A stretch of DNA of 64,000 nt from Candidatus Altiarchaeota archaeon. GTDB taxonomy: Archaea; Altiarchaeota; Altiarchaeia; IMC4; QMZM01. The DNA lies in assembly GCA_016931955.1 (NCBI GenBank), contig JAFGDV010000012.1, forward strand, positions 37,510-101,509. The letters are read 5' to 3'. The notes beneath the pieces are model-generated. The model was given only the letters and a program-made list of their open reading frames with translations, made no database searches and was not told where the DNA came from. Position 1 is the first letter of the stretch, and every line of letters begins with the position of its first letter. A program made the translations under genes and the position numbers. Below are positions 8,908 through 32,711 of the stretch, piece after piece.

Positions 8908-8911
8908 GTTT

Positions 8912-18473: not shown

Positions 18474-21400
18474 ATGCACGAAAATAAAAATAATTTAAAA
18501 CAAGAGAACATGCGAAAAACACTCTACTTGATAATAGGCATACTAATAACAGTCAGCCTAGCTAACGCACAATGTGGATATTCTGGAACAGGAGACTGGA
18601 TTATAGATTCTAAGATTGATTGCAAGGACACATCGATTACATTAAACGGAAACATACTCATCAACACAGGAGGCTGGCTTAACGCAACCAATGTGTTTTT
18701 CACATTCAACAACACTGGTAAAGCCAACGAAACAACAAGAGGCACGGCACTTGAAGACGGAGGCAACCTGACTCTTGTGGACTGCCTTTATCAAAGCAAC
18801 GAACCAGTTGGTGGAACGGATATTGAAGACAACCCAGGCGGTTGGACTAACACATGGATCAATGTATGGAATGATGTTGGAAATGCAGACTGTAGGATAA
18901 TATTGAATAGAACAACCTTCAATGGCATAGGGATGCATCCCTTGAACATATTAAATAGTCGCTATGGCATCTACCCTATGGAGGGGCAGATGTGGGTGGA
19001 CAACTGCACATGCAATAAATCAGTTAACTGTTTCATTTCTACAGCAGATAGCACAAGAGGGGATAATAGAACAATTCGCTACTTGAAAAACAACAAATTT
19101 GAGAACATAAGCACATTCCCCTATGTCTTCCTCTATGATGGAGACAGTGAAACAGAATACTTGGAAATAACAGGAAACACCTGGTATGGTAACACATACC
19201 GTATGGGGACACTTGATTACACTGAGAAAGTTAAGATATACGACAACACCGCAAGCGGCACACCCAACTATGGTTTCAGCAACAACGGAGCAAGTGATGT
19301 CTTGATATACAACATGAACATTTCAGGACCGCCAACAGCAGTAGAGTTAAATTCAGGAAACCATGACTTTGAGATATACAATCTGAATATAACAAACGGC
19401 GGAATAGGCTGCAACTACGGCAACCGCAACATAACAATACATGATGTAGACGTCACAGGTAAGAAAGCATTTGTAGGAAGCACCGCAGTCGCAGGAAGCC
19501 CAAACTACAACAACCACTTCTACAACATGACATACACATTTGTTTTCGGGGCAGACATAGTAGGCTACCTGATAGCCTACACAGGAGAAAACTCAACAAT
19601 AGAGGACATCACAATAGTTGGGTCTCCCACAGACCAGACAGCGATAACCACAAAACACGCCACAGGAGGGACTGGGGGAAGCGAATACTATGTTAAAAAC
19701 GTCACATATGAGGACATAAGCATAGACAACATCAACACAGGCATCCGGATGAAATACTTCAACGACAGCACATTCAGAGACATCAGGATGACCAATGTGA
19801 ACAGCTACAACATCTACTTCTCAGGGAACAACTACCGAAACAGATTCATCAACGTCACACACGACAGCGTTTTCTTCGACAACAACGACGACGTATTCGA
19901 CTACTACAATTATCTTTCGGTGAATGTGACCGGTGACAACGTGTGGGGGATAGAAGTGTATAATAGGACTAGCGATTTGTTAACGAGCGGATCCACGACG
20001 ACGGGGAAAGTCGAGAAACTAGAAGTCAACGAATTCAAGCAGACCAAGGTGGCGACAAATTTACAGTATCCGCACACGATCAAGGTAACAGGATTGGTGG
20101 CGGACACGGACTACAACGTCACAGTAAACGGAGCATACAGTCAAACAAAAAAGACAGACGCACTGGGAGTACTGACATTCCAAGAGAATATAACAGACAA
20201 CACACGGATGACACTGAAGGCGACAACAGACGTATACCCGCCATTCATCACGATCATTACACCACAGAACACAAAATACGCGCAAGGAGCGCTGACGGCG
20301 GAGATCAGCTTAGACGAAGACGGAGACTGGTGCGCATACTCACTAGAAGGAAACCCCAACAAAACAATGACAGGAGCAGGAAAAAGCTGGACAACACTGC
20401 TCACAGAACTCGCGAAGATAGAGTACAGCATAAAGTTCTGGTGCAATGACACACAAGGACACATGGGGTCATCCGAGAAACGATATTTTACGATAGTAGA
20501 ATGCCTGGCAGACGGAGACTGCGGCATAGGACAATACTGCAACACAGGAGATGAGTGCAAAGACAAAAAAGGAGACGGAGCACCATGCAGTGCAGATAAG
20601 GAGTGCACGTCAAATGAATGCTGCCATTCAATATGTAGAAGTGTGTGCCCCTACTGCGGAGACGGATACTGCGACGGAGGAGAAACATGCGGAACATGCC
20701 CGCTAGACTGCACCTGCGCACCCGGAGGCGGACCAGGAGGAGGAACAGGAGGATCCGGAGGAGCCATCGGGACAGGAGGAATAGGGGCGAACTGCTTCGA
20801 CGGGATAATGAACCAGGGAGAAACCGGAATAGACTGCGGAGGACCCTGCAAGGCATGTCCTAGTTGCATGGACGGGATACTGAACCAAGGCGAGACCGGA
20901 GTAGACTGCGGAGGACCCTGCGGAGAATGCGCCATCGGAGCGACAGCGGCAAGCTGCTATGACAGAATAAAGAACCAGGGAGAACAAGGAATAGACTGCG
21001 GAGGACCCTGCAAGGCATGCAAGACAGGGAACATATTACAGGAGAAATTCATGATAGGGTTAAATCATCCCAGTGAAGTGGAAGCAGGAGACCACTACAC
21101 AGTAGGAGTGACAGTAGAGAATACAGGAGACACCACACTAAAAGAACTGAACGTGAAAGTAGGCAGCCAGATAAAGACAACCGACTTAGATCTGACAGAG
21201 AAAAAGACAGTGGAATTCCAACTAACCGCGCCACGAGAAGAAGGAGAATACATGATAAAAGTAGAAGCATACAATGGAACCCTAAGAGAAGAAGAACAAA
21301 CAAAGATACAAGTAAAGCCAACCCCGCTGACGCTGAGAGCCACAACAGTAGACAACACAACATATATTATAACGCAGACCAATTACACCGACGCAGTGAT

Positions 21401-21665
21401 AGAATTAATAATCACAAGAGAAAACAAAACAGTATACTGGGACTACATAAGCGAAGAAGAACACATAACACAGATACAGGCAGGAAACTACCAAGTACAA
21501 GCCAACCTCAGAGTAGACGGAAAAACACTGAAAACCAAACAAATAACGCCGACCACAGAAAAAGAAACAATACCCGAAGACATGACCACGATACTGGCAA
21601 TACCGTTACTGATAATAAACCTCGCTTTATTAGGAAGCATCACCAAAAAAATAATAAGAAAATAA
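18474..21665 (+). CDS. Secreted, heavily N-glycosylation-sequon-rich surface protein (S-layer-like) with Cys-rich repeats and a C-terminal TM anchor
   Basis: 1063 aa. Signal-peptide-like MRKTLYLIIGILITVSLANA (probable start at 18510). Dozens of N-x-S/T sequons. Beta-helix-like N/T/Y-rich body. Gly-rich linker. Three C-x7-NQGExG-x-DCGGPC-x2-C repeats. C-terminal LAIPLLIINLALLGSITKKIIRK anchor. Confidence 0.6.
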   Translation: MHENKNNLKQENMRKTLYLIIGILITVSLANAQCGYSGTGDWIIDSKIDCKDTSITLNGNILINTGGWLNATNVFFTFNNTGKANETTRGTALEDGGNLTLVDCLYQSNEPVGGTDIEDNPGGWTNTWINVWNDVGNADCRIILNRTTFNGIGMHPLNILNSRYGIYPMEGQMWVDNCTCNKSVNCFISTADSTRGDNRTIRYLKNNKFENISTFPYVFLYDGDSETEYLEITGNTWYGNTYRMGTLDYTEKVKIYDNTASGTPNYGFSNNGASDVLIYNMNISGPPTAVELNSGNHDFEIYNLNITNGGIGCNYGNRNITIHDVDVTGKKAFVGSTAVAGSPNYNNHFYNMTYTFVFGADIVGYLIAYTGENSTIEDITIVGSPTDQTAITTKHATGGTGGSEYYVKNVTYEDISIDNINTGIRMKYFNDSTFRDIRMTNVNSYNIYFSGNNYRNRFINVTHDSVFFDNNDDVFDYYNYLSVNVTGDNVWGIEVYNRTSDLLTSGSTTTGKVEKLEVNEFKQTKVATNLQYPHTIKVTGLVADTDYNVTVNGAYSQTKKTDALGVLTFQENITDNTRMTLKATTDVYPPFITIITPQNTKYAQGALTAEISLDEDGDWCAYSLEGNPNKTMTGAGKSWTTLLTELAKIEYSIKFWCNDTQGHMGSSEKRYFTIVECLADGDCGIGQYCNTGDECKDKKGDGAPCSADKECTSNECCHSICRSVCPYCGDGYCDGGETCGTCPLDCTCAPGGGPGGGTGGSGGAIGTGGIGANCFDGIMNQGETGIDCGGPCKACPSCMDGILNQGETGVDCGGPCGECAIGATAASCYDRIKNQGEQGIDCGGPCKACKTGNILQEKFMIGLNHPSEVEAGDHYTVGVTVENTGDTTLKELNVKVGSQIKTTDLDLTEKKTVEFQLTAPREEGEYMIKVEAYNGTLREEEQTKIQVKPTPLTLRATTVDNTTYIITQTNYTDAVIELIITRENKTVYWDYISEEEHITQIQAGNYQVQANLRVDGKTLKTKQITPTTEKETIPEDMTTILAIPLLIINLALLGSITKKIIRK
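20793..21020 (+). repeat. Intragenic triplicated Cys-rich module (identical 32-mers ggaatagactgcggaggaccctgcaaggcatg at 20826 and 20989)
   Basis: Direct nucleotide repeats encoding NQGETGIDCGGPCKAC three times. Confidence 0.6.
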
Positions 21666-21666
21666 A

Positions 21667-21918
21667 ATGTACATACCCTACCTAAACATAGACATAGACC
21701 TAATATGGCTGCTAGTGCTAGGAAACATGGGAATGATACTAGCACTAATACTGATACTAATAGAACTACAACAAGTAAGAAAACTGAGGAAAGCATTCGA
21801 ACACATGTTCGGACACTACGAAGAACTAATGGAAAAAGACACCAAAATATTCTGGAAAGAACTGGAAGAACTAAAATACATAATAGGAGCAAACAACAAC
21901 AAATCAACTGAACAATGA
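21667..21918 (+). CDS. Small membrane protein (hypothetical)
   Basis: 83 aa. N-terminal TM helix plus a charged tail. Shares the A/C-skewed composition of the island. Confidence 0.25.
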   Translation: MYIPYLNIDIDLIWLLVLGNMGMILALILILIELQQVRKLRKAFEHMFGHYEELMEKDTKIFWKELEELKYIIGANNNKSTEQ

Positions 21919-21924
21919 AGCATA

Positions 21925-22025
21925 CAATCTGACATAGGATACGTGTTCTACGAGATCGAGCTTGCTCTTACCGCCCCCATGCGGTCGACGAAGGGGATGG
22001 AAATAGCCGCAGACCAGGATCTCTA
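21925..22025. repeat. Degenerate copy of the 3' end of GT2 gene 28347-29063 (att-like)
   Basis: ctgacataggatacgtgttctacgagatcgagcttgctcttaccgcccc… aligns to 28375-28440. Near-identical to the copy at 26521-26590. Confidence 0.6.
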
Positions 22026-22118
22026 AGAGGATAGGGATACAGCCGCCTGAGACACTAAAAGCCCACCGAAACATCTGATAACGGAGTTGTTACTTTCTGG
22101 TGTAGCATTTTTAAACAT

Positions 22119-22140
22119 ATGTTACGTTATAATGTAACAT
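22119..22140. promoter_or_regulatory. Perfect palindrome ATGTTAC-N8-GTAACAT between a TATA-like ttttaaac and the ATG of ATPase 1
   Basis: atgttacgttataatgtaacat overlaps start codon 22139. Operator-like position on a leaderless promoter. Confidence 0.35.
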
Positions 22141-23419
22141 GGAACTACGTAAATTAGCCGAAGCCAACCCCTGGTGGCAGACCAAAAAAGTACCACAAAA
22201 CCTCCGAGGACGCGACAGACCCAAATACAGACTACTCCTAAAATCAATCACACAAAAAGAAGTCACAATAATAACCGGAGTCAGACGCTCAGGAAAAAGC
22301 ACACTAATGTACCAGACCATAGACAACCTACTCAAAGAAAAAACACCCCCAAAACAGATACTATTCGTCAACCTAGAAGACCCAAGACTCACAAACGACA
22401 CACTAGACGACATATACGAAGCATACAGAAGCGGAATCAACCCCGACCAGAAGGCACACATCTTCCTAGACGAAATACACCGAAGAGAAAACTGGGAAAA
22501 ATGGGTCAAAAGACACTACGACCTCGGCACAGACTGCAAATTCACAATCTCAGGATCATGCTCATACCTCCTGAAAAAAGAATACTCAACACTACTCACA
22601 GGCAGAAACCTCACCTTCGAAGTATTCCCCCTAAGCTTCCAAGAATACCTCACCTTCAAAGGCATCAACTTAGACGCCGAAGCACTGGAAAAAGACATCC
22701 TCCTAGAGAAACAGAGACACGAAATCCAGAAGGCGATGAACGAATACATGGAAGAAGGAGGCTTCCCAGACGCGTTCTTCAAAGAAGAAGACTTCAAGAG
22801 ACTGCTCCTAACACAATACTTCGACGACATAATATACAAAGACATCGTAGACCGCCACGAACTAAACAGCCGCAAAACAAGAGACCTTGCACTATACCTC
22901 GCATCCAACATCACCTCCCCACTATCCCTCAGAAACATCAGAAACACGCTCGGACTATCCTACGAATCAATAAAAGACTACATCACATACTACGCCGAAG
23001 CATTCCTCTTCTTCACAGTCGAACACTTCTCCTACTCCCTCAAAGAACAGAAGACACGCCCCTCAAAAGCATACTGCATAGACAACGGCCTCCGAAACGC
23101 AGTAAGCTTCAAGTTCACAAAAGACGACGGAAAACTAGCCGAAAACCTAGCCTACCTCCACCTAAGACAAAACAAAGACGACATATACTACTGGAAAGAC
23201 AAAAACGAAGTAGACTTCATAACAAAAAACCCCGACCACACACTAACCGCCATAAACGTCACATACACAGATGAAGTGGACGAAAGAGAAATAAAGTCGC
23301 TCAAAGAATTCAAACAAAAACACAAAAAAACACAAGAACTCATAATAATCACAAAAAACACCCAAAAAACACAAGAAGAAATCAAGTACATACCACTATG
23401 GAAGTGGCTGCTAGAATAG
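22139..23419 (+). CDS. COG1373-type ATPase (AAA_14 + DUF4143-like)
   Basis: N-terminal NPWW, Walker A GVRRSGKSTLM, Walker B …IFLDEIH…, C-terminal …IPLWKWLLE*. Strongly A/C-skewed coding strand. Confidence 0.7.
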   Translation: MELRKLAEANPWWQTKKVPQNLRGRDRPKYRLLLKSITQKEVTIITGVRRSGKSTLMYQTIDNLLKEKTPPKQILFVNLEDPRLTNDTLDDIYEAYRSGINPDQKAHIFLDEIHRRENWEKWVKRHYDLGTDCKFTISGSCSYLLKKEYSTLLTGRNLTFEVFPLSFQEYLTFKGINLDAEALEKDILLEKQRHEIQKAMNEYMEEGGFPDAFFKEEDFKRLLLTQYFDDIIYKDIVDRHELNSRKTRDLALYLASNITSPLSLRNIRNTLGLSYESIKDYITYYAEAFLFFTVEHFSYSLKEQKTRPSKAYCIDNGLRNAVSFKFTKDDGKLAENLAYLHLRQNKDDIYYWKDKNEVDFITKNPDHTLTAINVTYTDEVDEREIKSLKEFKQKHKKTQELIIITKNTQKTQEEIKYIPLWKWLLE

Positions 23420-23454
23420 AGACTAACCCAGATACTCCGAGGTTTAATTTACAT

Positions 23455-23481
23455 TTGCCGCCCACGCGGTCGACGAATAAA
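23455..23481. repeat. Short relic of the GT2 3'-end repeat (gccgcccacgcggtcgacgaa)
   Basis: Matches the ccgcccccatgcggtcgacgaa core of the copies at 21961 and 26540. Confidence 0.4.
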
Positions 23482-23530
23482 CAAAATTTGCCGTTACAAG
23501 GGCAAAGTTTTAAAAGAAAATTCACCCACA

Positions 23531-23576
23531 AATGCAATATTTATGCATAAATATTGCAATAGACTGCAATATTTAA
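23531..23576. promoter_or_regulatory. Nested palindromic operator-like element (three TGCAATATTT/AAATATTGCA half-sites; ATTTATGCATAAAT)
   Basis: Upstream of ATPase 2. A paralogous ~50-bp copy lies at 29132-29185. Confidence 0.35.
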
Positions 23577-23599
23577 ATACAACAACCACTATATATAAC

Positions 23600-24925
23600 A
23601 TGGACAAAAACACCCTCAGAGCAACAATAATATCACAAAAAAAAGAAACAAAAAAAATACTAAAACAAGAAAAAATCATAGAAAGAGAACTACAAAAAGA
23701 AACAGAAAAACAACTAAAAAACAACCTCATCAAGATCACCACAGGCGTCAGAAGATGCGGAAAATCAACCCTCGCCCTACAAACACTCCAAGACAAAGAA
23801 CACGCCTACATCAACTTCGACGACGAAAGACTCTACAAGATCACGACAAAAGACCTCGACACAATCCTAGAAACACTATATGAAGTATACGGAAACTTCA
23901 AATACCTCCTCCTAGACGAAATACAGAACATACCTGGATGGGAGCTATACGCAAACAGACTACAAAGACAAGGCCTCAACCTCATAGTAACCGGAAGCAA
24001 CGCAAAACTACTAAGCAAAGAACTTGCAACACACCTAACAGGAAGACACATCACACTTGAACTATACCCCTTCTCCTTCAGAGAATACCTAAGCTACCAC
24101 AAAATCAGCCCCCAAAAAGAAGACCTACAAATCGCAGAAGGCATCGGAAAAATCAAAAAACACCTAAGAGACTACATAGAAAAAGGCGGATTCCCCGAAA
24201 CATACAAAATCAAAGACAACACAAGATACCTAAAAGACCTCTACAACTCCATCATAAACCAAGACATCATAAGCAGATACAACATAAAATACGCAAACAC
24301 GCTAAGAGAGATAATCTCCTACACCATCTCAAACTACGCAAGCCCAATAACCTACAAAAAAATAAAAAACATATTCGACATAAAAAGCCAACACACAATA
24401 AAAAACTACCTCTACTACGCAGAAGAATCATACCTGATAACCCAGAGCCTACAATACACACACAAAATAAAAGAACAAACACGACTGCCCAAAAAAATCT
24501 ACGCCATAGACACAGGCCTCATAAAAGCAATAGGATTCAAGGCATCAGAAAACACCGGCAGACTAATGGAAAACCTCATCGCAATAGAACTACAGAGAAA
24601 AAAAACACAAAACCCCCTCCTAGAAATATACCACTGGAGAGACTACCAAAAAAGAGAAGTCGACTTCGCAGTCAAAGAAGGCCTAAAAGTAAAGGAACTA
24701 ATCCAGGCATGCTACGACATCGAAGACCCAAAAACAAAGGAGAGGGAAGAAAAAGCATTGATAAAAGCCGGGAAAGAACTCAGATGCAAAAACCTCAAAA
24801 TAATAACCTGGGACCACGAAGAAACAGGGAGAATAGAGTATATCCCACTATGGAAGTGGCTGCTGCAGCCGACGGGTTTTGTCCCGGCGACTGAGGAGAA
24901 TGTAGTGCCTAACCCAACAAATTAG
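23600..24925 (+). CDS. COG1373-type ATPase paralog
   Basis: Start chosen at MDKNTLRA (23600). Walker A GVRRCGKSTLA. C-terminal …IPLWKWLL, then a read-through tail. Confidence 0.65.
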   Translation: MDKNTLRATIISQKKETKKILKQEKIIERELQKETEKQLKNNLIKITTGVRRCGKSTLALQTLQDKEHAYINFDDERLYKITTKDLDTILETLYEVYGNFKYLLLDEIQNIPGWELYANRLQRQGLNLIVTGSNAKLLSKELATHLTGRHITLELYPFSFREYLSYHKISPQKEDLQIAEGIGKIKKHLRDYIEKGGFPETYKIKDNTRYLKDLYNSIINQDIISRYNIKYANTLREIISYTISNYASPITYKKIKNIFDIKSQHTIKNYLYYAEESYLITQSLQYTHKIKEQTRLPKKIYAIDTGLIKAIGFKASENTGRLMENLIAIELQRKKTQNPLLEIYHWRDYQKREVDFAVKEGLKVKELIQACYDIEDPKTKEREEKALIKAGKELRCKNLKIITWDHEETGRIEYIPLWKWLLQPTGFVPATEENVVPNPTN

Positions 24926-24964
24926 GCACCAAACCCAAAAAAAACACCCCGAATAGGGGAAAAC

Positions 24965-26311
24965 CTAAGGCAACCCCAATAAAGAGAAAAGCCACGCCGG
25001 AATATAATATATTACTATACTATCTGTTCCCCCTCTCCTCAGCTGATTCCTCGTCACCAAAACCGCCTCACCTACACCGTATTTTTCGCAGAATTTAGTT
25101 AGGCTACGAATGTCTTTCTTGTTAATGTAGGTCTGATACTTGACTTCGACAGGCAGCAGCCTTTTGTCCGCTAATACAATATCCACCTCATCCTTCTGCG
25201 GCGTACGCCAGAAAGATATCTTCTGCAGACTACCCACTATCTGAGACTCTATGAGATGACCTGCTATCCCACCACCTTCAAGCATGCTAAAGGGTTGATC
25301 CAATAACGCCAACACAATAGATGGGTGGACTATGAACTGTTTCTTGCTTGCACGCACCTGCTTAGATACGTTGACAGAGTAGTTGTAGGCCACCTTAATC
25401 AGAAAAGATTTCTCTAGTAGGCTTACATACTCTGCCGCCTGATTTCGGTTAATCCTGAGGTTGCCTGCTATGTTCACCAACTCAAAGAGTTGGGCGTTCG
25501 CCGCAGCCAGCAGCCTGAGCAATTCGTAGACCACGTTCTCATTCCCCCTGCTAGCCCGACTTATGTCTTCGACGGTTTTCTCTATCACCGACTCCCGAAT
25601 ATACTTTTTAATGTATTCTTCGTCGTCTTCGTCAAACAGCTCAGGGAAGGCGCCCCTCTCCAAGTATTGGATGAACAGTTCCATGTATCTAGCCCTATTC
25701 GCAGCGAAATGCAGGTCATATTCTCGTATCATGTTTTCGTTCAAGGCTATCTCGTCCCTAAGACCAAAGTATCTCACAAACTCCCTGAAGGAAAGTACTG
25801 GCAGATGAAAGGATAGTATCCTGCCGGCAAGCGTTTCCCTGTATTTCCTCAGCTCAAGAGACGATGACCCGGAGACAAAAATCTTCAGGTTCTCTTCGGT
25901 GTCATAGACAGTCTTAAGGAGATCAGGGAAGTTAGGAAGCTTCTGCACCTCGTCGAGGAAAAGATACCTCATACCTTTCCCATCAGAAAACTCCAGAAAG
26001 TAGTTGATTAGATCCCATGCCACCTCATACCTCTGGAAGTCTATGTCGTCGAAGGAGATATAGCAGACGTTCTTTTCTTCGGTCTTCACCAGAAGCTTCT
26101 TTATCATCTGCTTGAGTAAGACAGTCTTGCCTACGCGCCGCAGACCCACGACTGCCAGAATCTGCCTATTTTGACAGTATTTGAGTAGGTCTCCCATGAG
26201 GTCTCTCTCAAACTCTGGAGTAGTGAAGTCTTTTTTCTCCCACCACGGGTTCTGCCTGAAAAGCAGTCTACTGTGTCTTTCGTCCATCGTATTATCTATT
26301 AGGAAGAACAT
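24965..26311 (-). CDS. COG1373-type ATPase paralog
   Basis: …QNPWWEKKDF…GLRRVGKTVLL…YIPAWLFSLL. Confidence 0.65.
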   Translation of the reverse strand: MFFLIDNTMDERHSRLLFRQNPWWEKKDFTTPEFERDLMGDLLKYCQNRQILAVVGLRRVGKTVLLKQMIKKLLVKTEEKNVCYISFDDIDFQRYEVAWDLINYFLEFSDGKGMRYLFLDEVQKLPNFPDLLKTVYDTEENLKIFVSGSSSLELRKYRETLAGRILSFHLPVLSFREFVRYFGLRDEIALNENMIREYDLHFAANRARYMELFIQYLERGAFPELFDEDDEEYIKKYIRESVIEKTVEDISRASRGNENVVYELLRLLAAANAQLFELVNIAGNLRINRNQAAEYVSLLEKSFLIKVAYNYSVNVSKQVRASKKQFIVHPSIVLALLDQPFSMLEGGGIAGHLIESQIVGSLQKISFWRTPQKDEVDIVLADKRLLPVEVKYQTYINKKDIRSLTKFCEKYGVGEAVLVTRNQLRRGGTDSIVIYYIPAWLFSLLGLP

Positions 26312-26321
26312 CCTTATAAAG

Positions 26322-26380
26322 TTTATGCACTAAAAACGTGCACAAAATAAAATTTTATGCACAAAAACTGTGCACAGAAT
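26322..26380. promoter_or_regulatory. Tandem 27-bp operator-like repeat, each unit with a TGCAC-N8-GTGCA inverted repeat
   Basis: tttatgcactaaaaacgtgcacaaaat / tttatgcacaaaaactgtgcacagaat, directly upstream of ATPase 3 on the minus strand. Confidence 0.35.
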
Positions 26381-26415
26381 CTAAAAAGCCACAAGATTAA
26401 GAACGACGCTATTGA

Positions 26416-26600
26416 TTATCTCCCCAAAAAACCAGGGAAAGCATTCAAACACTACGAATAAAAAAAGAACTGGAAAAACTGAAACATATAGTCTACATCA
26501 CAGAAGAAGAAAAAAACTAAAGGCCGAGCTTGCTCTTACCGCCCCCATGCGGTCGACGAAGGAGATGGAGATGGCCGCAGACCCTCAACTGCCCCAGACC
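26416..26600. repeat. Direct repeat: ~105-bp intergenic segment plus a degenerate GT2 3'-end copy (partner at 28246-28440)
   Basis: tccccaaaaaaccagggaaagcattcaaacactacgaataaaaaaag… aligns with 28246-28350. gagcttgctcttaccgcccccatgcggtcgacgaagg aligns with 28406-28440 and is near-identical to 21961-22000. Confidence 0.65.
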
Positions 26601-26710
26601 CCTTGCCACAGAATCCTCAGACATTATAAGGTACAGATGACAAAAAACATAGTATTCCATCAGATACAACCAACAATATTTAAACCCAGAAAACAAAAAT
26701 AAGATAAAAG

Positions 26711-28093
26711 ATGACAATCATCGACTCCCTGAAAGCCCAAAACGAATGGTGGAAGACCGGGAAAGTACCCACAGCACTCCTAAAAAAAACCAAAAGAGAA
26801 GAATACAAGACAGCAGAAAAACTCCTCAAAGAAGAAAGAATAACCGCAATAACCGGACCACGCAGAACCGGAAAAACAACCCTCCAATACCAGCTCATAC
26901 ACCACCTCCTCCAAGAAACCGAACCCAACAAGATACTCTACATATCCATGGACGACCCATCACTAAGACCCCACACACAAAACCTCCTACAAGAAATACT
27001 GGAAACCTACTACAGAGAAATCCTCCTCGAAGAAAAAAGAAACACACAAGTCCACGTCTTCATAGACGAAATACACTTCCACACAAACTGGGAACAATGG
27101 CTGAAAAAATACTACGACCAAAGATACCCAATAAAATTCACGATAACAAGCTCATCCTCAGCCCACCTATCACAGAAGTCAAAAGAAAGCCTCGTCGGAC
27201 GAATCATCGAAATACTACTACTCCCCCTAAGCTTCAGAAGCTACCTCGCCCTCACAGGAAAAAACCAGCTCACAGAACACTACAACAAACTCAGCCTCGA
27301 AACAATAGACGCAGACAAAAGATTCCAGCTGCTAAAACACGAAGAAGAAGCACGGATCATGTTCTCAAAATACCTCCTATACGGAGGACTGCCCGAGTCC
27401 ATAAAAACAGGAGAAATACACCTATGGCAGGAAAAACTAATATCAGACGTCCTAAGAAAAGTTATATACAGAGACATCACAGGACTCTACGACGTCAGAA
27501 CACCCACAAAACTCGAAGACCTCTTCGTCCACCTCACATACAACACCAGCAAAACATTCTCATACACCTCCCTCTCCCAAAACCTCGGCATAAGCACAGA
27601 AGCCATAATAAACTACACACGCTACCTCCAGGAATCCTACCTCATAGGCGAACTACGACTCCACACAAAAAGCATCGAAAAAAGCCTCCGAGCCAACAGA
27701 AAATACTTCATAATGGACTGCGGACTACAGAACGCCATAACAAAAACCACCGACCTAACCGAAGCCAACACAGGCCCACTAATAGAATCCACAATCGAAA
27801 AACACCTCTACGCATACGCCAAAAAAGAAAACCACAACCTACACTACTGGAGAGAAAAAGAAGAAGTAGACATAATACTAGACACCAAAAAAAAGACACT
27901 ACCAATAGAGGTAAAATACAAAAACAAGATAAAAAAAGAAGACATGCGAGGACTACTCAAATTCATGGACAAATACAAAACAGACAAAGGATACATGATA
28001 ACCAAAGACCTCCTCCAAAAACAAAAAATCAACGGAAAAGAAATCCAACTAATACCAGCATGGCTATTCCTACTAGCAATACCCGCCGCCTAA
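26711..28093 (+). CDS. COG1373-type ATPase paralog
   Basis: …QNEWWKTGKVP…GPRRTGKTTLQ…LIPAWLFLLAIPAA. Confidence 0.65.
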   Translation: MTIIDSLKAQNEWWKTGKVPTALLKKTKREEYKTAEKLLKEERITAITGPRRTGKTTLQYQLIHHLLQETEPNKILYISMDDPSLRPHTQNLLQEILETYYREILLEEKRNTQVHVFIDEIHFHTNWEQWLKKYYDQRYPIKFTITSSSSAHLSQKSKESLVGRIIEILLLPLSFRSYLALTGKNQLTEHYNKLSLETIDADKRFQLLKHEEEARIMFSKYLLYGGLPESIKTGEIHLWQEKLISDVLRKVIYRDITGLYDVRTPTKLEDLFVHLTYNTSKTFSYTSLSQNLGISTEAIINYTRYLQESYLIGELRLHTKSIEKSLRANRKYFIMDCGLQNAITKTTDLTEANTGPLIESTIEKHLYAYAKKENHNLHYWREKEEVDIILDTKKKTLPIEVKYKNKIKKEDMRGLLKFMDKYKTDKGYMITKDLLQKQKINGKEIQLIPAWLFLLAIPAA

Positions 28094-28245
28094 AAAAAAA
28101 AGACTGAGACAACAGCCTGCTTCTTTCCCGCCTGAACATATAAAAAGATCACTATTAGCATGATCATGGTTATACAATTCAGAAACCAAGTGACTGAACC
28201 CTAAGACCTGAAAGAAATAATAGGAAACAACAACGAATCAGCTTA

Positions 28246-28440
28246 TAATCTATCCCCAAAAAAAAACCAGGGAAAGCATTCGAACACTACGAATAAAAAA
28301 AGATCCAGGAAAAAACCAGCCTGCATCACAGAAGAAGAAAAAAAAACTACTTCAGATACAGGCGGAGACAATGCCTGACATAGGATAAGTGTTCTCCGAG
28401 ATTAAGCTTGCTCTTACCGCCCTCTCGGTCAATGAAAGTG
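28246..28440. repeat. Resident copy of the direct repeat (intergenic ~105 bp plus the genuine 3' end of the GT2 gene)
   Basis: See 26416-26600. Confidence 0.65.
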
Positions 28441-29063
28441 ATCGGGACCTCCTTGACTCGGGAATAGCGGCCGCGAACCAGTATTTCTAAGAGGATCTTG
28501 AAGCCGACCGGGTTAAGGACGACGCCGTCAATAACTTCTCTGCGGAAGAAGAAGAAACCAGAGACCGGATCCCTGACAGAGGTGAGGGGGCGAGCCAAGA
28601 GGACAGCACCCCGAGAGGTTAGACGACGACGAAGAGGCCAATTCTGGATACAACCGCCACGGACATAGCGGCTGCCGACGGAGACATCGGCTTCGCCCCG
28701 CAAAATAGGAGCCACCAAAGCAGGAATAGCGTCTAGGGGATGAGAGAAGTCGGCGTCCATGACGCCAAATATGCCGCCCGAAGCCTGAGAGAAGCCGGCG
28801 AGGACGGCAGAGGAAAGACCTAATTTGCCGGAGCGGACGATGATTTTAAGATCGGGGTAAGGGCTTTGAAGAGAACGGACGACTTCGGCGGAGCCATCTG
28901 GGCTGTTGTCGTCTACGATGATCAGTTCACCGCGGAGGTCGTTGCGGGAAAAAACCTTGAAGAAGGCAGGAATAAGCTTGGATAAGTTCTCGCGTTCATT
29001 ATAGGTGGGTACGACGACTGAGACCCTGGAGTTCTCCAAGGGAGGGAAAGAAGTCCTATGCAT
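28347..29063 (-). CDS. GT2 dolichol/polyprenol-phosphate mannosyltransferase-like (Dpm1-type, soluble form)
   Basis: …VSVVVPTYNERENL…VDDNSPDGS…DADFSHP… GC-rich (core-like) composition, unlike its neighbours. Confidence 0.7.
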   Translation of the reverse strand: MHRTSFPPLENSRVSVVVPTYNERENLSKLIPAFFKVFSRNDLRGELIIVDDNSPDGSAEVVRSLQSPYPDLKIIVRSGKLGLSSAVLAGFSQASGGIFGVMDADFSHPLDAIPALVAPILRGEADVSVGSRYVRGGCIQNWPLRRRLTSRGAVLLARPLTSVRDPVSGFFFFRREVIDGVVLNPVGFKILLEILVRGRYSRVKEVPITFIDREGGKSKLNLGEHLSYVRHCLRLYLK

Positions 29064-29131
29064 GATAAAGGATATAAACAGATACGGAAATAAATAAGTT
29101 TGCTGTTATGAGGTGGGGATAATCTACCCAC

Positions 29132-29185
29132 GGATGCAATAGTTATGCATAGATATTGTAATAGACTGCAGTATTTGGATACGAT
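29132..29185. repeat. Copy of the ATPase-2 upstream palindromic element
   Basis: ggatgcaatagttatgcatagatattgtaatagactgcagtatttggatac is ~85% identical to 23531-23580. Confidence 0.45.
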
Positions 29186-29209
29186 AATAAAAGATCACTG
29201 AGGGATAAT

Positions 29210-29245
29210 GGGAGGGGCTGCTAGGATAGAGGAGTTGATACCCCA
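29210..29245. repeat. Relic of the ATPase 3'-terminal motif plus the left 21-bp direct repeat of the AbiE-like module
   Basis: tgggaggggctgctaggatagag matches tggaagtggctgctagaatagag (23401-23423) at 20 of 23 positions. gatagaggagttgatacccca recurs at 31174-31193. Confidence 0.5.
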
Positions 29246-29307
29246 GTAGTCGTCGAGGACAAAGGAGAAGAAAGCCCCACGCATTTTACGGAACATACAC
29301 GGTAATG

Positions 29308-29350: not shown

Positions 29351-29378
29351 TTTATAGGTGAAAAACACATAACATAAC

Positions 29379-30221
29379 ATGCTAGAACTGATCTACGGGA
29401 CAAAAACAAAGACCAGGATACTGGAAGAGCTCGCAACAGCAGGAAAACCAAAGACCAGAAAAGAACTAATAGAGCTGACAGGATGCGGCACCAGGGGAGT
29501 ATACGAGCAGACAGAGGAACTAATAACCCTAGGCATAGTCAAAGAAACCAAGAAAGGCTGGAAAAAACTAGAGCTAAACCCAGAACACCCACTATACCAG
29601 GACATCAAAAACACGGCACTCGCAGCAATAGACTACAAAAAAAACCTCATAAAAAACCTCCTCCAGACAATAGACCAAATACTAGAAGACGACTACTATA
29701 TCGGATTCTACACAGCAGCCACAAAAAAAATCACACCAATCGACTACACACCAGAGAAACACGTATACAAGGTACTGGACACAGAATACGAAAAAAAAAT
29801 AAAGAAAATCAAAACATACGACAAACTAAGGGAAATAGACATACAAAAAGAGAAAAAAGGGTTGATTAAGGCAGTATTCCTAAAATGCCAGAAAATCCCG
29901 GAAGACGTGACAAGAGAAGAAATACAAAACCAGGAAGTGTGGATAGCAAGCACGGAGAGGGGTATAGTAGAATGCTTCACCCCAGAAAACAAATACTTCA
30001 CCAGATACGGAAGCTGCCTGGCCCTGCTACAAAACAAAATAGAAAACACAATAGACGAAAAACAACTACTGAAAATAGCAGGAGAACTCAACATAAAAAA
30101 AGAACTAGTTAAAGTCATGGGCAGCTTCAACCACCACCTCAAAAAAAGACTATTCAACGCAGAACCCAACACAGAAGAGATCAAAGAAGTCAAACAGGCG
30201 ATAAACACGGTATTAGGATGA
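29379..30221 (+). CDS. AbiEi-like antitoxin / transcriptional regulator (N-terminal wHTH)
   Basis: TRILEELATAGKPKTRKELIELTGCGTRGVYEQTEELITLGIV winged-helix. Stop overlaps the start of the downstream NTase by 4 bp. Confidence 0.5.
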   Translation: MLELIYGTKTKTRILEELATAGKPKTRKELIELTGCGTRGVYEQTEELITLGIVKETKKGWKKLELNPEHPLYQDIKNTALAAIDYKKNLIKNLLQTIDQILEDDYYIGFYTAATKKITPIDYTPEKHVYKVLDTEYEKKIKKIKTYDKLREIDIQKEKKGLIKAVFLKCQKIPEDVTREEIQNQEVWIASTERGIVECFTPENKYFTRYGSCLALLQNKIENTIDEKQLLKIAGELNIKKELVKVMGSFNHHLKKRLFNAEPNTEEIKEVKQAINTVLG

Positions 30222-31177
30222 AGACAACATACACGACAGAAGAAAAAGAAGGGATCCTAGGCATAATAGAAACCTGGGGGAGAGAACAGATAACCCAAGA
30301 CGTCTTCAGAAAAATACAACTACAGACAGGCATACCTTCAGGACTGATAGAGACAACATTCTGGCACATAGACACACTCTATCAGCTGAAAAAACTCGAA
30401 AAACCACCCATATTCAAAGGAGGAACCTGCGTACAATGCTACATCCCAGCAGGCCTGCAGAGAGCATCAAACGACCTAGACTTCAATTCAAGGATAGCCA
30501 ACCCAGCCACCATAAGGGAGCAGATAAAAAAACTAAACAAAAAACTGCTAAACAAAGGAAACGCCACACAGATAAAAAAATACGGCGAAAGAATAAGCTA
30601 TGGAACATTCGACTACCAGCTAAAAGACGAAATATCCGGTGTTATAACATTCAACAGGAGAATGCCCTCCCGCCTTGGAGAATACGTCAAAGCAGGCGAA
30701 CTAGAGGTTCAGGCAAAAAACATGAAAATCCAGGTAAACTACAAACACGCCTGGATGCCCGCAATAAAGACGATAGACAAAAAACCAAGATTCTTCATAC
30801 TCGAACACCAAAAAATGAAAGGATTCACCTACCCAAGCTCAAGCCTGAACGACCTAATCGCCGACAAAATACTTGCAACAACAAAAGAAACGGGGAGAGA
30901 ACGATTCAAAGACGTATACGACCTGATGACTCTGTTCATGCAAAAATACGAGAAAAAACAGATACTCGAGAAACTGGAGAGGATACTGGAGAAGAAAGGG
31001 CAACAACCAGAGACCACGATAAAATCCTCGGCAACGAATATCGGGAGATTCACAGAAAAAAGCCTCGAAGCACAAGGATTCAAAAGCCTCGTATGCAAAG
31101 ACGGCAGAAAACTCATAGAAAACTGGGAAACCAACTGCTTAAAGCTAACAGAGAAGATGAACTCGTTGCTGAGATAG
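30218..31177 (+). CDS. AbiEii-like nucleotidyltransferase toxin (DUF1814 / Pol-beta NTase fold)
   Basis: FKGGTCVQCYIPAGLQRASNDLDFNS matches the hGG…DhDh NTase motif of AbiEii-family toxins. Translationally coupled to the upstream wHTH gene. Confidence 0.55.
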   Translation: MKTTYTTEEKEGILGIIETWGREQITQDVFRKIQLQTGIPSGLIETTFWHIDTLYQLKKLEKPPIFKGGTCVQCYIPAGLQRASNDLDFNSRIANPATIREQIKKLNKKLLNKGNATQIKKYGERISYGTFDYQLKDEISGVITFNRRMPSRLGEYVKAGELEVQAKNMKIQVNYKHAWMPAIKTIDKKPRFFILEHQKMKGFTYPSSSLNDLIADKILATTKETGRERFKDVYDLMTLFMQKYEKKQILEKLERILEKKGQQPETTIKSSATNIGRFTEKSLEAQGFKSLVCKDGRKLIENWETNCLKLTEKMNSLLR

Positions 31178-31354: not shown

Positions 31355-32641
31355 ATGGAGCACAGAAAAATCATAATACAATGGAAAGAATACACACCAC
31401 CGAAGACACAACCCAGAGAAGTGAACATCGACCCCACAACAGACTTCATCACCACAATAACAGGCCCAAGAAGAGCAGGCAAAACATACCTCTGCTACCA
31501 GCTAATGAACCACCTAATAGACAAAGGAACCCCCCGAGAAAACATCCTATACGTGAACTTCGAAGACGAAAAACTCATAGGGGCTAAAGCAGCAGACCTC
31601 GAAAAACTGATGAACACATTCCAAGAACTAACAGACACCAACCCAGAACACAACACCTACCTCTTCCTCGACGAAATACAGAACGTCAAAGACTGGGACG
31701 CATGGATAAGGAGAATACACGACACCCAAAAAAACGTGAAACTAATACTCACAGGCTCATCCTCCAAGATGCTAAGCCGAGAAGTCACAACAAAACTACG
31801 CGGCAGAATACTAAACCACGAAGTATACCCCCTAAGCTTCAAAGAATACCTCACATGGAAAAACACCCCATACAACCTAAAAACACTAACAGAAAGCAGA
31901 GACAGAATCGAAGTAAAAAAACAATACAATGAATACCTGACAAACGGAGGCTACCCCACAATAGCACTCAACCAAGCACCCAGAGAACAGATACTCCAAA
32001 GCTACTACGAATCAATGATATTCAAGGATGTGGTAGAAAGACACAACATCAAAGACGTCAAAAAACTGCGCATACTCGCAAAACTACTATTCGAATCCAC
32101 ATCAAAAGAGATGTCCTACAACAGGCTAGCAAACAAACTCAAATCCCTCGGATTCACAGCAAGCAAAAACACCATAATAGAACACATCAGCCACTTCGAA
32201 GACGCATACCTATTCTTCCAGAACATGAAACACGAGTACTCCATCACAAAACGGATGGGTGCGATAAAAAAGATCTACTGCATAGACAACGGACTACTCA
32301 ACACAGTCAGCTTCAAATTCGCAGAAGACACCGGAAAACTGATGGAAAACCAAGTCTACATAGAACTAAAACGCAGAAACAAACAAGTCTACTACCACAA
32401 AGACAAACACGAATGCGACTTCCTCACACAAGAAAAAAACAAGATCACATCAGCCATACAAGTAACCCACACACTAAACGACGAAAACGAAGACCGAGAA
32501 ATAAACGGCCTACTTGAAGCCATGAGAACCCACAACCTACAAGATGGAACCATCCTCACCTTCGAACAAGAAGAGACAAGAAAAAAAGACGACAAAACAA
32601 TACGGATCACACCAGTCTGGAAGTGGCTGCTGGAGACATGA
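31355..32641 (+). CDS. COG1373-type ATPase paralog
   Basis: …ITGPRRAGKTYLCY…FLDEIQN…ITPVWKWLLET*. Confidence 0.65.
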   Translation: MEHRKIIIQWKEYTPPKTQPREVNIDPTTDFITTITGPRRAGKTYLCYQLMNHLIDKGTPRENILYVNFEDEKLIGAKAADLEKLMNTFQELTDTNPEHNTYLFLDEIQNVKDWDAWIRRIHDTQKNVKLILTGSSSKMLSREVTTKLRGRILNHEVYPLSFKEYLTWKNTPYNLKTLTESRDRIEVKKQYNEYLTNGGYPTIALNQAPREQILQSYYESMIFKDVVERHNIKDVKKLRILAKLLFESTSKEMSYNRLANKLKSLGFTASKNTIIEHISHFEDAYLFFQNMKHEYSITKRMGAIKKIYCIDNGLLNTVSFKFAEDTGKLMENQVYIELKRRNKQVYYHKDKHECDFLTQEKNKITSAIQVTHTLNDENEDREINGLLEAMRTHNLQDGTILTFEQEETRKKDDKTIRITPVWKWLLET

Positions 32642-32711
32642 GATCGAAAGAAAAACAGACCAGAGAGTATCTTTGTTGACCAAAATTTATAAATAATGGA
32701 CAACATAGATG

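What the first reader, a model, noticed from the sequence alone, without database searches (positions are those of the whole stretch)
21925..28440. ATPase genes bracketed by degenerate copies of the 3' end of a resident GT2 gene: footprint of serial cassette integration at one gene-terminal hotspot
The genuine 3' end of the Dpm1-like GT2 gene (28347-28440, minus strand) has two ~60-100-bp degenerate direct copies, at 21925-22025 and 26521-26600. The second copy also carries the ~105-bp intergenic segment just past the gene's 3' end (26416-26520 matches 28246-28350). A 22-bp relic sits at 23460-23481. ATPase 1 is therefore flanked by a copy on its left and a relic on its right, and ATPase 4 by a copy on its left and the real gene on its right. 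The two displaced copies are near-identical to each other but only ~70% identical to the resident gene end. This is the classic signature of integrative elements that carry a foreign version of their target gene's 3' end and insert repeatedly at the same att site, as with tRNA-targeting islands. Here each inserted unit is a single ~1.3-kb COG1373 ATPase gene with its own operator, and no integrase is in the window.
Basis: seen in the sequence. Interest (0 to 1): 0.75.

Follow-up and report, generated by a model that had tools for sequence, protein, structure and literature searches.

The report
Gene-end stubs scarring an archaeal defence island
In this Altiarchaeota genome, short dead copies of the ends of a sugar-transferase gene and a small neighbouring gene lie between five candidate anti-virus ATPase genes; they look like scars of repeated recombination that reshuffled the gene array, not the attachment sites of a classic integrating element.

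Summary
The Dpm1-like GT2 gene (28347-29063, minus strand) has three dead 3'-end copies. With them lie fragments of the neighbouring 83-aa gene, a copy of the GT2 upstream spacer, and two ATPase "ghosts".

The ATPases are AAA_14 + DUF4143 proteins, which PADLOC lists as candidate defence family PDC-S01. With an AbiE pair they form a defence island between a surface-protein gene pair and MetV/MetF.

For cassette turnover:
- The ATPases are only 24-37% identical to each other, while the stubs are 70-95% identical.
- Related genomes arrange the locus differently.
- The same bracketing pattern occurs around other genes: thyA 5' end, a TPR gene 5' end, and the small gene.

Against an integrase/att mechanism:
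- No recombinase is in the window.
- Stub boundaries differ.
- Copies 1 and 2 share two disabling indels.
- A whole second GT2 gene once existed and was later deleted.
- Two ATPases are old residents.

Best reading (confidence about 0.5): homologous or unequal recombination, short gene-conversion patches and microhomology deletions among short gene-end repeats. The stubs are scars of that history. Interest is moderate, as a new variant of a known kind.

The parts
18474..21665 (+). 1063-aa Cys-rich surface protein (weak CARDB match). It is the conserved left anchor of the island.
   Evidence: Pfam match. It is syntenic with the 83-aa gene in L002/L003, L165 and L176.
21667..21918 (+). 83-aa membrane-helix plus coiled-coil gene (sORF), intact copy
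   Evidence: Only 8 homologues were found, 61-71% identical. In four genomes it always directly follows the big protein.
21905..22060 (-). GT2 3' stub, copy 1 (type A). It encodes ..ILLEILVCGYFHPLRRPHGGGKSKLDLVEHVSYVRLYASLFS*, and its stop codon overlaps the sORF 3' end.
   Evidence: (tblastn E 7.6e-5). The RLYAS C-terminus resembles the L002 GT2 (RLYASMLK*).
22139..23419 (+). ATPase 1 (AAA_14 + DUF4143; PADLOC PDC-S01)
   Evidence: The promoter segment 22086-22141 is 82% identical to the L002 spacer 6709-6765.
23420..23481 (-). GT2 3' stub (the 'relic', type B). Its stop codon lies 2 nt from the ATPase 1 stop. It has an internal deletion of about 33 nt.
   Evidence: The same ATPase-stop/GT2-stop junction is present in L004 (88% over 43 nt).
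23482..23590 (.). Copy of the GT2 upstream spacer, which also serves as the ATPase 2 promoter. It contains the 26-bp perfect palindrome at 23533-23558. With the relic it forms a GT2 'ghost' that has lost its body.
   Evidence: (D6, I1). The deletion ends share the microhomology ACG(G)AA.
23543..24925 (+). ATPase 2. The likely start is the ATG at 23600. The normal stop is lost, which extends the C-terminus.
24965..26311 (-). ATPase 3. It has ordinary codon composition and is the orthologue of L002 gene 6890-8218.
   Evidence: 76% aa and 75% nt over 1341 nt, including the upstream spacer.
26400..26520 (+). Degenerate sORF fragments to the left of copy 2
   Evidence: 83.5% identical to 28261-28344; alignment.
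26525..26630 (-). GT2 3' stub, copy 2. The core 26525-26583 is 95% identical to copy 1. The last roughly 18 codons are deleted, and weak homology continues to about 26630.
26711..28093 (+). ATPase 4 (PDC-S01). Its closest relatives are 57-64% identical and sit as single genes in unrelated loci.
28203..28346 (+). Degenerate sORF fragments downstream of the intact GT2: a 3'-end piece at 28203-28243 and a middle piece at 28260-28344
   Evidence: (D13).
28347..29063 (-). Intact Dpm1-like GT2 (polyprenol monophosphomannose synthase), tail type B
29084..29190 (.). GT2 upstream spacer with a palindrome copy at 29135-29158
29190..29260 (+). ATPase ghost: a 3'-tail relic placed directly after the promoter spacer. 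It is followed by a weak trace of the ATPase/GT2 junction.
   Evidence: (D18, 88%). The junction trace is weak.
29379..31177 (+). AbiEi-like (29379-30221) and AbiEii (30218-31177) pair
31355..32641 (+). ATPase 5, the orthologue of L002 gene 8504-9796
   Evidence: 81% aa and 84.7% nt over 1345 nt. Its tail is 93.6% identical to the ATPase that converges on GT2 in L004.
32680..32790 (+). ATPase ghost: a TATA-like box, an ATG and 7 codons fused to a 26-codon tail (ITWDREEKGRIEYIPLWKWLLE*). It ends in 'gaataaag', as does the L004 ATPase/GT2 junction.
   Evidence: (88% to the ATPase 2 tail).
32985..34060 (+). MetV-like (DUF5981) and MetF. They form the conserved right anchor.
   Evidence: In L004 GT2 lies 65 bp from MetV.

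Best explanation
The region is a defence-gene island in a Candidatus Altiarchaeota genome. It holds five PDC-S01-type ATPase/PD-(D/E)xK genes and an AbiE pair. It lies between a surface-protein gene pair (the 1063-aa protein and the 83-aa sORF) and MetV/MetF. One housekeeping gene, the Dpm1-like GT2, is embedded in it.

The island grows, shuffles and shrinks by general recombination between short conserved gene-end sequences. Those sequences are the GT2 tail, sORF pieces and the conserved ATPase C-terminal tail. The recombination takes three forms: unequal crossing-over, single-crossover insertion or excision of circles that carry one repeat plus cargo, and short gene-conversion patches. Each event duplicates a segment that contains all or part of GT2 and/or sORF. 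The redundant copy then loses its body through microhomology deletions. What remains are the ends that abut a neighbour's stop codon or promoter. On this reading the GT2 3' copies are pseudogene stubs, that is, scars. They are not att sites, and no dedicated integrase is needed.

Shown directly:
- the stubs, the ghosts and the junction types;
- the shared indels of copies 1 and 2;
- the old ATPase lineages;
- the variable layouts in relatives;
- the recurrence of the pattern at other genes.

Inferred:
- that homologous or unequal recombination is the engine;
- that some cassettes arrived as circles or from other strains;
- that stubs persist because they adjoin neighbouring genes.
For: 1. Identity of the genes.
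- The ATPases are AAA_14 + DUF4143 and match PADLOC PDC-S01 at E 1e-57 to 1e-118.
- AbiEii is present.
- PDC-S01 is described as an ATPase fused to a PD-(D/E)xK domain, is abundant in Archaea, and is experimentally unvalidated (PMC12988326).

2. Age mismatch.
- ATPase paralogues are 24-37% identical in amino acids.
- The stubs are 70-95% identical in nucleotides.
- ATPase 4's nearest relatives (57-64%) are solitary genes in unrelated loci.

3. Four combinations of tail type and downstream flank exist. This implies repeated breakpoints at the GT2 stop codon.
- Copy 1: type A tail + intact sORF.
- Copy 2: type A tail + sORF fragments.
- Real gene: type B tail + sORF fragments.
- Relic and L004: type B tail + ATPase tail.

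4. Copies 1 and 2 share a 20-nt deletion and a 2-nt insertion. Their 95% identity stops sharply at both ends of a 59-bp patch, while weak homology resumes 29 nt further on. This fits short-tract gene conversion between older stubs.

5. A GT2 ghost (tail joined to the upstream spacer, with ACG(G)AA microhomology) and two ATPase ghosts (promoter or start joined to the tail) show whole-unit duplication followed by internal deletion.

6. Layouts differ in relatives.
- L004: an ATPase 5-like gene converges on GT2, and GT2 lies 65 bp from MetV.
- L002: sORF converges on PMT_2-GT2, with four ATPases on the GT2 5' side and a GT2 5' fragment among them.
- L165: the sORF is followed by ATPases, PIN and HicAB, with no GT2.

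7. The same bracketing occurs around other genes.
- L002: thyA 5' end copies after two ATPases.
- L169/L170: the first 100 nt of a TPR gene bracket an ATPase and a toxin-antitoxin-like pair.
- L166: sORF-like copies bracket an ATPase.

8. No integrase, transposase, tRNA or Rfam element is present.
Against: - No excision circle, empty site or recombination junction was observed directly. The mechanism is inferred from static sequence.
- Only a handful of related loci could be recovered.
- Solitary ATPase 4-like genes in four loci (L171, L172, L173, L175) and the ATPases downstream of the sORF in L165 show no bracketing repeats. The pattern is therefore not universal.
- In L169 two stubs end at the same nucleotide of the TPR gene (about nt 100). 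A site-specific enzyme would explain that equally well.
- An integrase could lie outside the 64-kb window; the source contig is 114 kb.
- The persistence of stubs 'because they adjoin neighbours' was not tested.
- The cassettes share an extreme codon bias that GT2 lacks. This hints at a common external pool, or a process that this model does not explain.
Confidence: 0.5

Rival explanations
1. Single-gene ATPase cassettes are integrative elements that carry their own version of the GT2 3' end. A trans-acting site-specific recombinase inserts them serially at one att site in that gene end, as happens with tRNA-targeting islands.
For: - Direct repeats of the gene end bracket ATPase 1 and ATPase 4.
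- An 18-nt stretch, AGCTTGCTCTTACCGCCC, is identical in copy 1, copy 2 and the real gene.
- The cassettes are much older and more diverged than the repeats.
- In L169 two stubs of a TPR gene end at the same position.
- Cassette positions differ between strains.
Against: - No recombinase domain is found in any window ORF of at least 150 aa.
- Stub boundaries differ: GT2 codons about 180-185, about 197 and about 209.
- Copies 1 and 2 share disabling indels, so they were not two working gene ends displaced in turn.
- The shared 18-mer encodes the conserved GGKSKL motif, so coding constraint explains it.
- The relic is joined to a copy of the GT2 upstream spacer. Insertion aimed at the tail would not duplicate that spacer.
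- Stubs and ghosts also lie on the 5' side of the real gene.
- ATPases 3 and 5 are old residents.
Confidence: 0.15
2. Purely local history. A [GT2 + ATPase] unit was tandemly duplicated several times in place, and the copies then diverged and decayed. No cassettes were imported or moved.
For: - The GT2 ghost plus the duplicated upstream spacer plus an ATPase ghost show that at least one whole-unit duplication occurred.
- Conserved ATPase tails (93% over 28 nt) provide a substrate for unequal crossing-over.
- Part of the array predates the split from L002.
Against: - ATPase paralogues are only 24-37% identical, and each has closer relatives elsewhere: ATPase 4 at 64%, ATPase 5 at 81%, ATPase 3 at 76%.
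- Non-coding stubs that should decay faster are 70-95% identical.
- The ATPase 5 lineage sits on opposite sides of GT2 in L004 compared with the window and L002.
- The cassettes share a codon bias that GT2 and ATPase 3 lack.
Confidence: 0.2
3. The ATPase/PD-(D/E)xK proteins mobilise their own genes in a homing-like way. They cut at or near gene ends and are copied in by repair. Flanking gene-end sequence is co-converted in the process.
For: - The family carries a PD-(D/E)xK nuclease-fold domain.
- The genes are multi-copy and scattered as single-gene insertions.
- Gene-end copies accompany them at four different target genes.
Against: - There is no evidence of sequence-specific cleavage.
- A toxin-antitoxin-like pair without an ATPase is bracketed in the same way in L169.
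- Many family members show no flanking repeats.
- The target genes are unrelated to each other.
Confidence: 0.05
4. The 59-bp core shared by copies 1 and 2 is a functional element, such as a regulatory site or small RNA placed upstream of ATPases 1 and 4, and selection conserves it.
For: - Identity of 95% ends sharply on both sides.
- The core lies at nearly the same distance from the downstream start codons, 124 and 128 nt.
Against: - There are only two copies in the window and none in the viral contigs.
- Neither strand folds better than shuffled sequence; z-scores are -0.15 to 0.85.
- No Rfam family matches.
- The sequence is plainly a frameshifted GT2 coding fragment.
Confidence: 0.05

Closest known systems
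Serial integration scars of integrase-bearing elements at tRNA or protein-gene 3' ends, such as archaeal SSV/pNOB8-type elements and bacterial genomic islands (own knowledge)
   Same: - Several direct, partly diverged copies of one gene's terminal segment lie with cargo between them.
- The intact gene is preserved at one end of the array.
   Different: - No integrase is present here.
- The copies do not share one crossover core or boundary.
- Two copies share disabling indels.
- Copies of the gene's upstream spacer and of neighbouring genes are also scattered through the array.
- Each cargo unit is one or two defence genes, not a plasmid or virus.
Defence islands and core-gene-flanked defence hotspots (own knowledge; PDC-S01 and archaeal defence survey in PMC12988326)
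   Same: - Candidate defence genes cluster here: five PDC-S01 genes plus AbiE.
- The content differs between related genomes at a syntenic place.
   Different: - Described hotspots are usually occupied by integrase-bearing mobile elements, or are explained by flank-mediated replacement.
- Here the flanking and embedded core genes themselves are repeatedly part-duplicated inside the island.
Neisserial 'minimal mobile elements': cassettes exchanged between conserved flanking genes by homologous recombination (own knowledge)
   Same: - No element-encoded recombinase is involved.
- Whole-gene cassettes differ between strains at the same flanks.
   Different: - Minimal mobile elements replace one another and leave no duplicated flank stubs.
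- Here cassettes accumulate, and flank fragments are duplicated.
IS26 translocatable units and Campbell-type single-crossover insertion (own knowledge)
   Same: - The predicted product has the same form: repeat, cargo, repeat, cargo, repeat.
- Each unit consists of one repeat plus its cargo.
   Different: - The repeat here is a fragment of a resident housekeeping gene, not an insertion sequence with a transposase.
- No circular intermediate has been observed.

Membership tests
Site-specific integrative element (attL/attR with an integrase) | A tyrosine or serine recombinase gene in or beside the element | tested here: not met
   Pfam scans of every window ORF of at least 150 aa, plus the island ORFs, found no integrase, resolvase or transposase domain. 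The rest of the genome could not be searched.
Site-specific integrative element (attL/attR with an integrase) | An identical att core at both ends of each unit, at one fixed position in the target gene | tested here: not met
   The gene-proximal ends of the stubs fall at GT2 codons about 180-185, about 197 and about 209. The only sequence shared by all long copies is the 18-mer that encodes GGKSKL.
Site-specific integrative element (attL/attR with an integrase) | Occupied and empty sites in related strains, with precise boundaries | tested here: inconclusive
   L004 lacks the 3.9-kb AbiE/ATPase 5 block between GT2 and MetV, and has an ATPase converging on GT2. No clean empty sORF/GT2 junction was recovered. 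L176 ends 98 nt after the sORF.
Integron (IntI plus attC cassettes) | An IntI integrase and structured attC sites at the cassette ends | tested here: not met
   No integrase was found. No Rfam match reached the gathering threshold in 17-35 kb. No conserved inverted repeats lie at the cassette ends. The core does not fold better than shuffles.
PDC-S01 candidate defence genes (PADLOC) | A single gene that encodes an AAA_14 ATPase plus a DUF4143 (PD-(D/E)xK) domain and matches the PDC-S01 profiles | tested here: met
   All five ATPases match, at E 2.6e-57 to 2.4e-118 against PDLC04787. Pfam finds AAA_14 + DUF4143 in each.
PDC-S01 candidate defence genes (PADLOC) | Protection against viruses | not testable with these tools
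   The literature states that validation is pending (PMC12988326).
Defence island / variable hotspot | Several defence or toxin-antitoxin genes together, with content that differs between related genomes at syntenic flanks | tested here: met
   The window holds five PDC-S01 genes plus AbiE. L002 holds four PDC-S01 genes plus PIN. L165 holds two PDC-S01 genes plus PIN and HicAB after the same big-protein/sORF pair.
Transposon or casposon | Terminal inverted repeats, a short fixed target-site duplication, and a transposase or Cas1 | tested here: not met
   No such genes were found. No inverted repeats bracket the units. The duplicated segments are 60-185 bp long and of variable extent.

The most novel reading that the evidence does not exclude
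Gene-end stubs may act as portable homology. Recombination between two stubs would release a circle holding one stub and a defence cassette. Any genome, or any place, that carries the same gene end could then take up that circle by a single crossover. This would give archaeal defence and toxin-antitoxin cassettes an integrase-free way to move and pile up. The same pattern at GT2 3', thyA 5', a TPR gene 5' and the sORF would be its footprint. A stronger variant is that the PD-(D/E)xK ATPases themselves start the process by cutting near gene ends.
Probability: 0.25. Interest if true: 0.75.

Novelty: new variant of a known kind. Interest (0 to 1): 0.5.

Why it matters
PDC-S01 genes are among the commonest candidate defence genes in Archaea. 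How such single-gene systems accumulate in islands that lack mobile-element machinery is unclear.

This locus gives a readable record of how one island was built. Other gene ends in three other genomes show parallel cases. Together they suggest that ordinary recombination between short duplicated gene ends can gain, duplicate and delete cassettes while keeping the embedded housekeeping gene intact. If that holds generally, duplicated stubs of neighbouring genes would be a simple, searchable marker of recent cassette traffic in genomes where no integrase can be found.

There is also a caution for interpretation. Repeated gene-end fragments alone do not prove site-specific integration.

Tried and rejected
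- The genome contigs and metagenome-contig scans with the GT2 protein returned only distant GT2 genes (56% identity or less) from unrelated organisms, because the back-translated motifs were too generic.
- The viral-contig scan for the 28-nt core found nothing. Scans for ATPases 1 and 5 found no relatives.
- Rfam at a permissive threshold gave no credible hit in 17-35 kb. The window has no tRNA.
- Folding the core on both strands gave no structure signal, so an attC-like or RNA element was rejected.
- The closest sORF relative with sequence downstream (L176) ends 98 nt after the gene and showed nothing recognisable.
- No remnant of the PMT_2 gene that follows GT2 in L002 was found in the window.
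- Assembly artefact was considered and rejected for 26.5-34.0 kb. An independent Logan contig (L001) is 100% identical to 26533-34034 and breaks inside the repeated core, as a short-k assembler would. The left half of the array (21.6-26.5 kb) has no independent assembly.
- High nucleotide identity between ATPase tails was discounted as evidence of recent exchange. With the near-deterministic codon choice of these genes, a conserved peptide alone gives near-identical DNA.

Full report
WHAT THE WINDOW IS

The intact GT2 protein is 100% identical to a protein annotated 'polyprenol monophosphomannose synthase' from a Candidatus Altiarchaeota MAG, on a 114-kb contig. The window has three parts:
- 1-18.3 kb is a low-GC glycosylation cluster.
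- 18.5-32.8 kb is the region of interest.
- From 33 kb onward lie Wood-Ljungdahl and housekeeping genes at about 50% GC: MetV/MetF, MCH, RACo, CdhD, RadB-like, TFB and others.

No tRNA gene is present.

CHECKING THE OBSERVATION

- The 37-nt core occurs exactly twice, and none of 100 shuffles gave a match.
- Copies 1 and 2 are 94.9% identical over 59 nt, E 2e-20.
- Copy 1 matches the real tail at 81.8% over 77 nt, E 7e-14, and at 70% over the whole 140-nt alignment.
- The segment past the gene end is repeated at 83.5% over 91 nt, E 6e-21.
- The relic matches a degenerate pattern that is expected 0.01 times by chance.

Translation shows these are GT2 coding fragments on the minus strand:
- Copy 1 reads ..ILLEILV..GGKSKLDLVEHVSYVRLYASLFS*.
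- The relic reads FVDRVGGKCKLNLGVSGL*.
- The real gene reads ..ILLEILVRGRYSRVKEVPITFIDREGGKSKLNLGEHLSYVRHCLRLYLK*.

WHAT ELSE IS THERE

1. Copy 1 keeps its own stop codon, which overlaps the 3' end of the 83-aa gene (sORF). It therefore looks like the original convergent sORF/GT2 junction. Its RLYAS C-terminus resembles the GT2 of the outgroup genome L002. I call this tail 'type A'.
2. The relic is about 60 nt long. Its stop codon lies 2 nt from the ATPase 1 stop. The identical ATPase-stop/'ag'/GT2-stop junction is present in a related strain, L004. The relic, the real gene and L004 share the RLYL(K/G)* ending, which I call 'type B'.
3. A roughly 110-bp copy of the spacer upstream of the real GT2 follows the relic directly. 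This copy includes a 26-bp perfect palindrome. Together they form the ghost of a complete second GT2 gene whose body was deleted. The two deletion ends share the microhomology ACG(G)AA.
4. The '105-bp intergenic segment' beside copy 2 and beside the real gene consists of degenerate pieces of the sORF. It includes an exact 17-mer from the sORF interior.
5. Two ATPase ghosts exist.
   - One is a 3' tail placed directly after the promoter spacer, at 29190-29231.
   - The other is a TATA-like box, an ATG and 7 codons fused to a 26-codon tail, at 32680-32790. It ends in the same 'gaataaag' as the L004 junction.

THE GENES

All five ATPases are AAA_14 + DUF4143 proteins and match PADLOC's candidate defence family PDC-S01 at E 1e-57 to 1e-118. 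The two ORFs at 29379-31177 are an AbiEi-like/AbiEii pair.

A 2026 survey describes PDC-S01 as an ATPase fused to a PD-(D/E)xK domain. It is very common in Archaea and still lacks experimental validation (PMC12988326). The region is therefore a defence island.

No integrase, resolvase or transposase domain is found in any window ORF of at least 150 aa.

AGES

- The ATPases are only 24-37% identical to one another.
- ATPase 5 is 81% identical, and ATPase 3 is 76% identical, to genes that lie beside GT2 in L002. The GT2 of L002 is only 72% identical to the window's. Those two ATPases were therefore already near GT2 before the two lineages split.
- ATPase 4's nearest relatives (57-64%) are solitary genes between unrelated housekeeping genes in other archaea.
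- The non-coding stubs are 70-95% identical.

The cassette bodies and the stubs thus have very different ages. This rules out a simple history of tandem duplication followed by divergence.

WHY IT IS NOT A CLASSIC ATT/INTEGRASE FOOTPRINT

1. Copies 1 and 2 share a 20-nt deletion and a 2-nt insertion that are absent from the real gene, L004, L002 and the relic. They derive from, or were overwritten by, one already dead fragment.
2. Their near-identity is a 59-bp patch with sharp edges. On the left, copy 2 has lost the last 18 or so codons and joins sORF fragments like those beside the real gene. On the right, identity collapses for about 25 nt and then weakly resumes. A short gene-conversion tract between older stubs explains this best.
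3. The stubs end at three different GT2 codons.
4. All four combinations of tail type (A or B) and downstream flank (intact sORF, sORF fragments, ATPase tail) occur. Breakpoints have therefore fallen repeatedly at the stop codon, not at a core inside the tail.
5. The duplicated GT2 upstream spacer and the ghosts lying on the 5' side of the real gene cannot come from insertions into the 3' tail.
6. The core has no fold signal and no Rfam match.

RELATIVES

- L004 has a GT2 that is 88% identical in amino acids and 80% in nucleotides. There GT2 lies 65 bp from MetV, and an ATPase 5-like gene (tail 93.6% identical) converges on its stop codon. Compared with L004, the window has 3.9 kb (ghosts, AbiE, ATPase 5) between GT2 and MetV.
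- L002 has the order big protein, sORF, then a convergent PMT_2-GT2 operon. Four ATPases lie on the GT2 5' side, with a 28-codon GT2 5' fragment among them.
- L165 has the big protein and sORF followed by ATPases, PIN and HicAB, with no GT2.

The place is a hotspot across the group, and GT2 is caught up in it.

THE PATTERN RECURS ELSEWHERE

- In L002 the thyA start (MKHF.IKAFDIPDAW..) is the real gene after one ATPase. It is present as fragments after two others, with 36 of 40 residues identical in one of them.
- In L169/L170 an ATPase 4-like gene and a DUF2283 toxin-antitoxin-like pair are each bracketed by copies of the first 50-100 nt of the downstream TPR gene. Those copies are 78-94% identical and share one right-hand boundary.
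- In L166 an ATPase is bracketed by sORF-like copies, with an ATPase tail relic beside them.
- The solitary ATPase 4-like genes in four loci (L171, L172, L173, L175) and the ATPases downstream of the sORF in L165 show no such repeats.

MECHANISM

I favour general recombination between short conserved gene-end sequences. It has three components:
- Unequal crossing-over. For example, crossing-over between the conserved ATPase tails would duplicate a [GT2-spacer-ATPase] unit and reproduce the ATPase/GT2 junction.
- Single-crossover insertion of circles that hold one stub plus cargo. This gives stub-cargo-stub, with boundaries set by wherever the circle closed.
- Short conversion patches.

Microhomology deletions would then remove the redundant gene bodies.

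The structures are shown directly. The recombination route, and the idea that stubs survive because they adjoin a neighbour's stop or promoter, are inference. A trans-acting integrase outside the window cannot be excluded. The fixed boundary in L169 keeps that option alive.

RELIABILITY OF THE ASSEMBLY

An independent Logan contig is 100% identical to 26533-34034 and stops inside the repeated core. The left half of the array has no independent assembly.

VERDICT

The finding is a new variant of a known kind, of moderate interest.

Noticed in passing
window 19500-32800, plus-strand genes (sORF, ATPases 1, 2, 4 and 5, AbiEi/AbiEii); L002 2111-3439, 5318-6571, 8504-9796: T-ending codons are almost absent from these genes.
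- Only 37 of 2437 pooled codons (1.5%) end in T. Examples: GAC 114 vs GAT 3, TAC 120 vs TAT 5, CAC 55 vs CAT 0, and Leu CTN 270 vs TTR 7.
- G-ending codons are also rare apart from ATG and TGG.
- GT2 and ATPase 3, which lie on the minus strand, have ordinary composition.
- Inside the 1063-aa gene, third-position T falls from 0.2-0.3 at the 5' end to 0.02 at the 3' end.
- In L002 only three ATPases show the bias, while thyA and an acyltransferase between them on the same strand do not.
- ATPase 4-like genes in other archaea have normal composition.

The cause is unknown. The bias marks the cassettes as a compositional class apart from the resident genes.
   Followed up: partly
L169 5470-5519, 6998-7097, 7734-7833 (same layout in L170): In an unrelated archaeal MAG, the first 50-100 nt of a TPR gene occur three times. 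They bracket an ATPase 4-like PDC-S01 gene and a DUF2283 toxin-antitoxin-like pair. Both displaced copies end at about nt 100 of the TPR gene.
   Followed up: partly
L002 1988-2105, 5184-5328, 8388-8555: The 5' end of thymidylate synthase, together with its junction to an ATPase tail, is repeated after two further ATPases. The repeats appear as 45-aa and 39-aa pseudo-ORFs. L002 also carries a 28-codon GT2 5' fragment at 8218-8301.
   Followed up: partly
L166 4209-4454, 6241-6332, 7163-7380, 4554-4586: In another Altiarchaeota MAG, three sORF-like copies bracket a PDC-S01 ATPase and an ATPase-tail relic. They lie away from the big surface-protein gene that the sORF normally follows.
   Followed up: partly
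window 23533-23558 and 29135-29158: A 26-bp perfect palindrome, TGCAATATTTATGCATAAATATTGCA, lies in the ATPase 2 promoter, and a 92% copy lies in the GT2 upstream spacer. It is a likely operator. It overlaps the first ATG of the listed ATPase 2 ORF, so the real start is probably 23600. Other cassettes have their own repeated upstream motifs (read directly).
   Followed up: no
window 24860-24925: ATPase 2 has lost the usual stop after ..PLWKWLL(E) and runs on for about 20 further codons (QPTGFVPATEENVVPNPTN).
   Followed up: no
window 20726-21019: The 1063-aa surface protein contains tandem Cys-rich modules of about 162 nt (..GIDCGGPCKAC..), 73-83% identical to each other.
   Followed up: no
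window 28347 downstream, compared with L002 10747-12141: In L002 a 464-aa PMT_2 gene follows GT2, overlapping its stop codon. The window has no trace of that gene next to GT2, and its only PMT_2-like gene (11332-12789) is just 23% identical to it.
   Followed up: partly
window 34395-34688: A 97-aa minimal nucleotidyltransferase (NTP_transf_2/Polbeta), of the kind found in HEPN/MNT toxin-antitoxin pairs, sits alone between MetF and MCH.
   Followed up: no
window 1-18300 vs 33000-64000: There is a sharp compositional contrast between the two ends of the window. The glycosylation cluster has 32-42% GC and codons rich in third-position T and A. The core metabolic region has about 50% GC.
   Followed up: no
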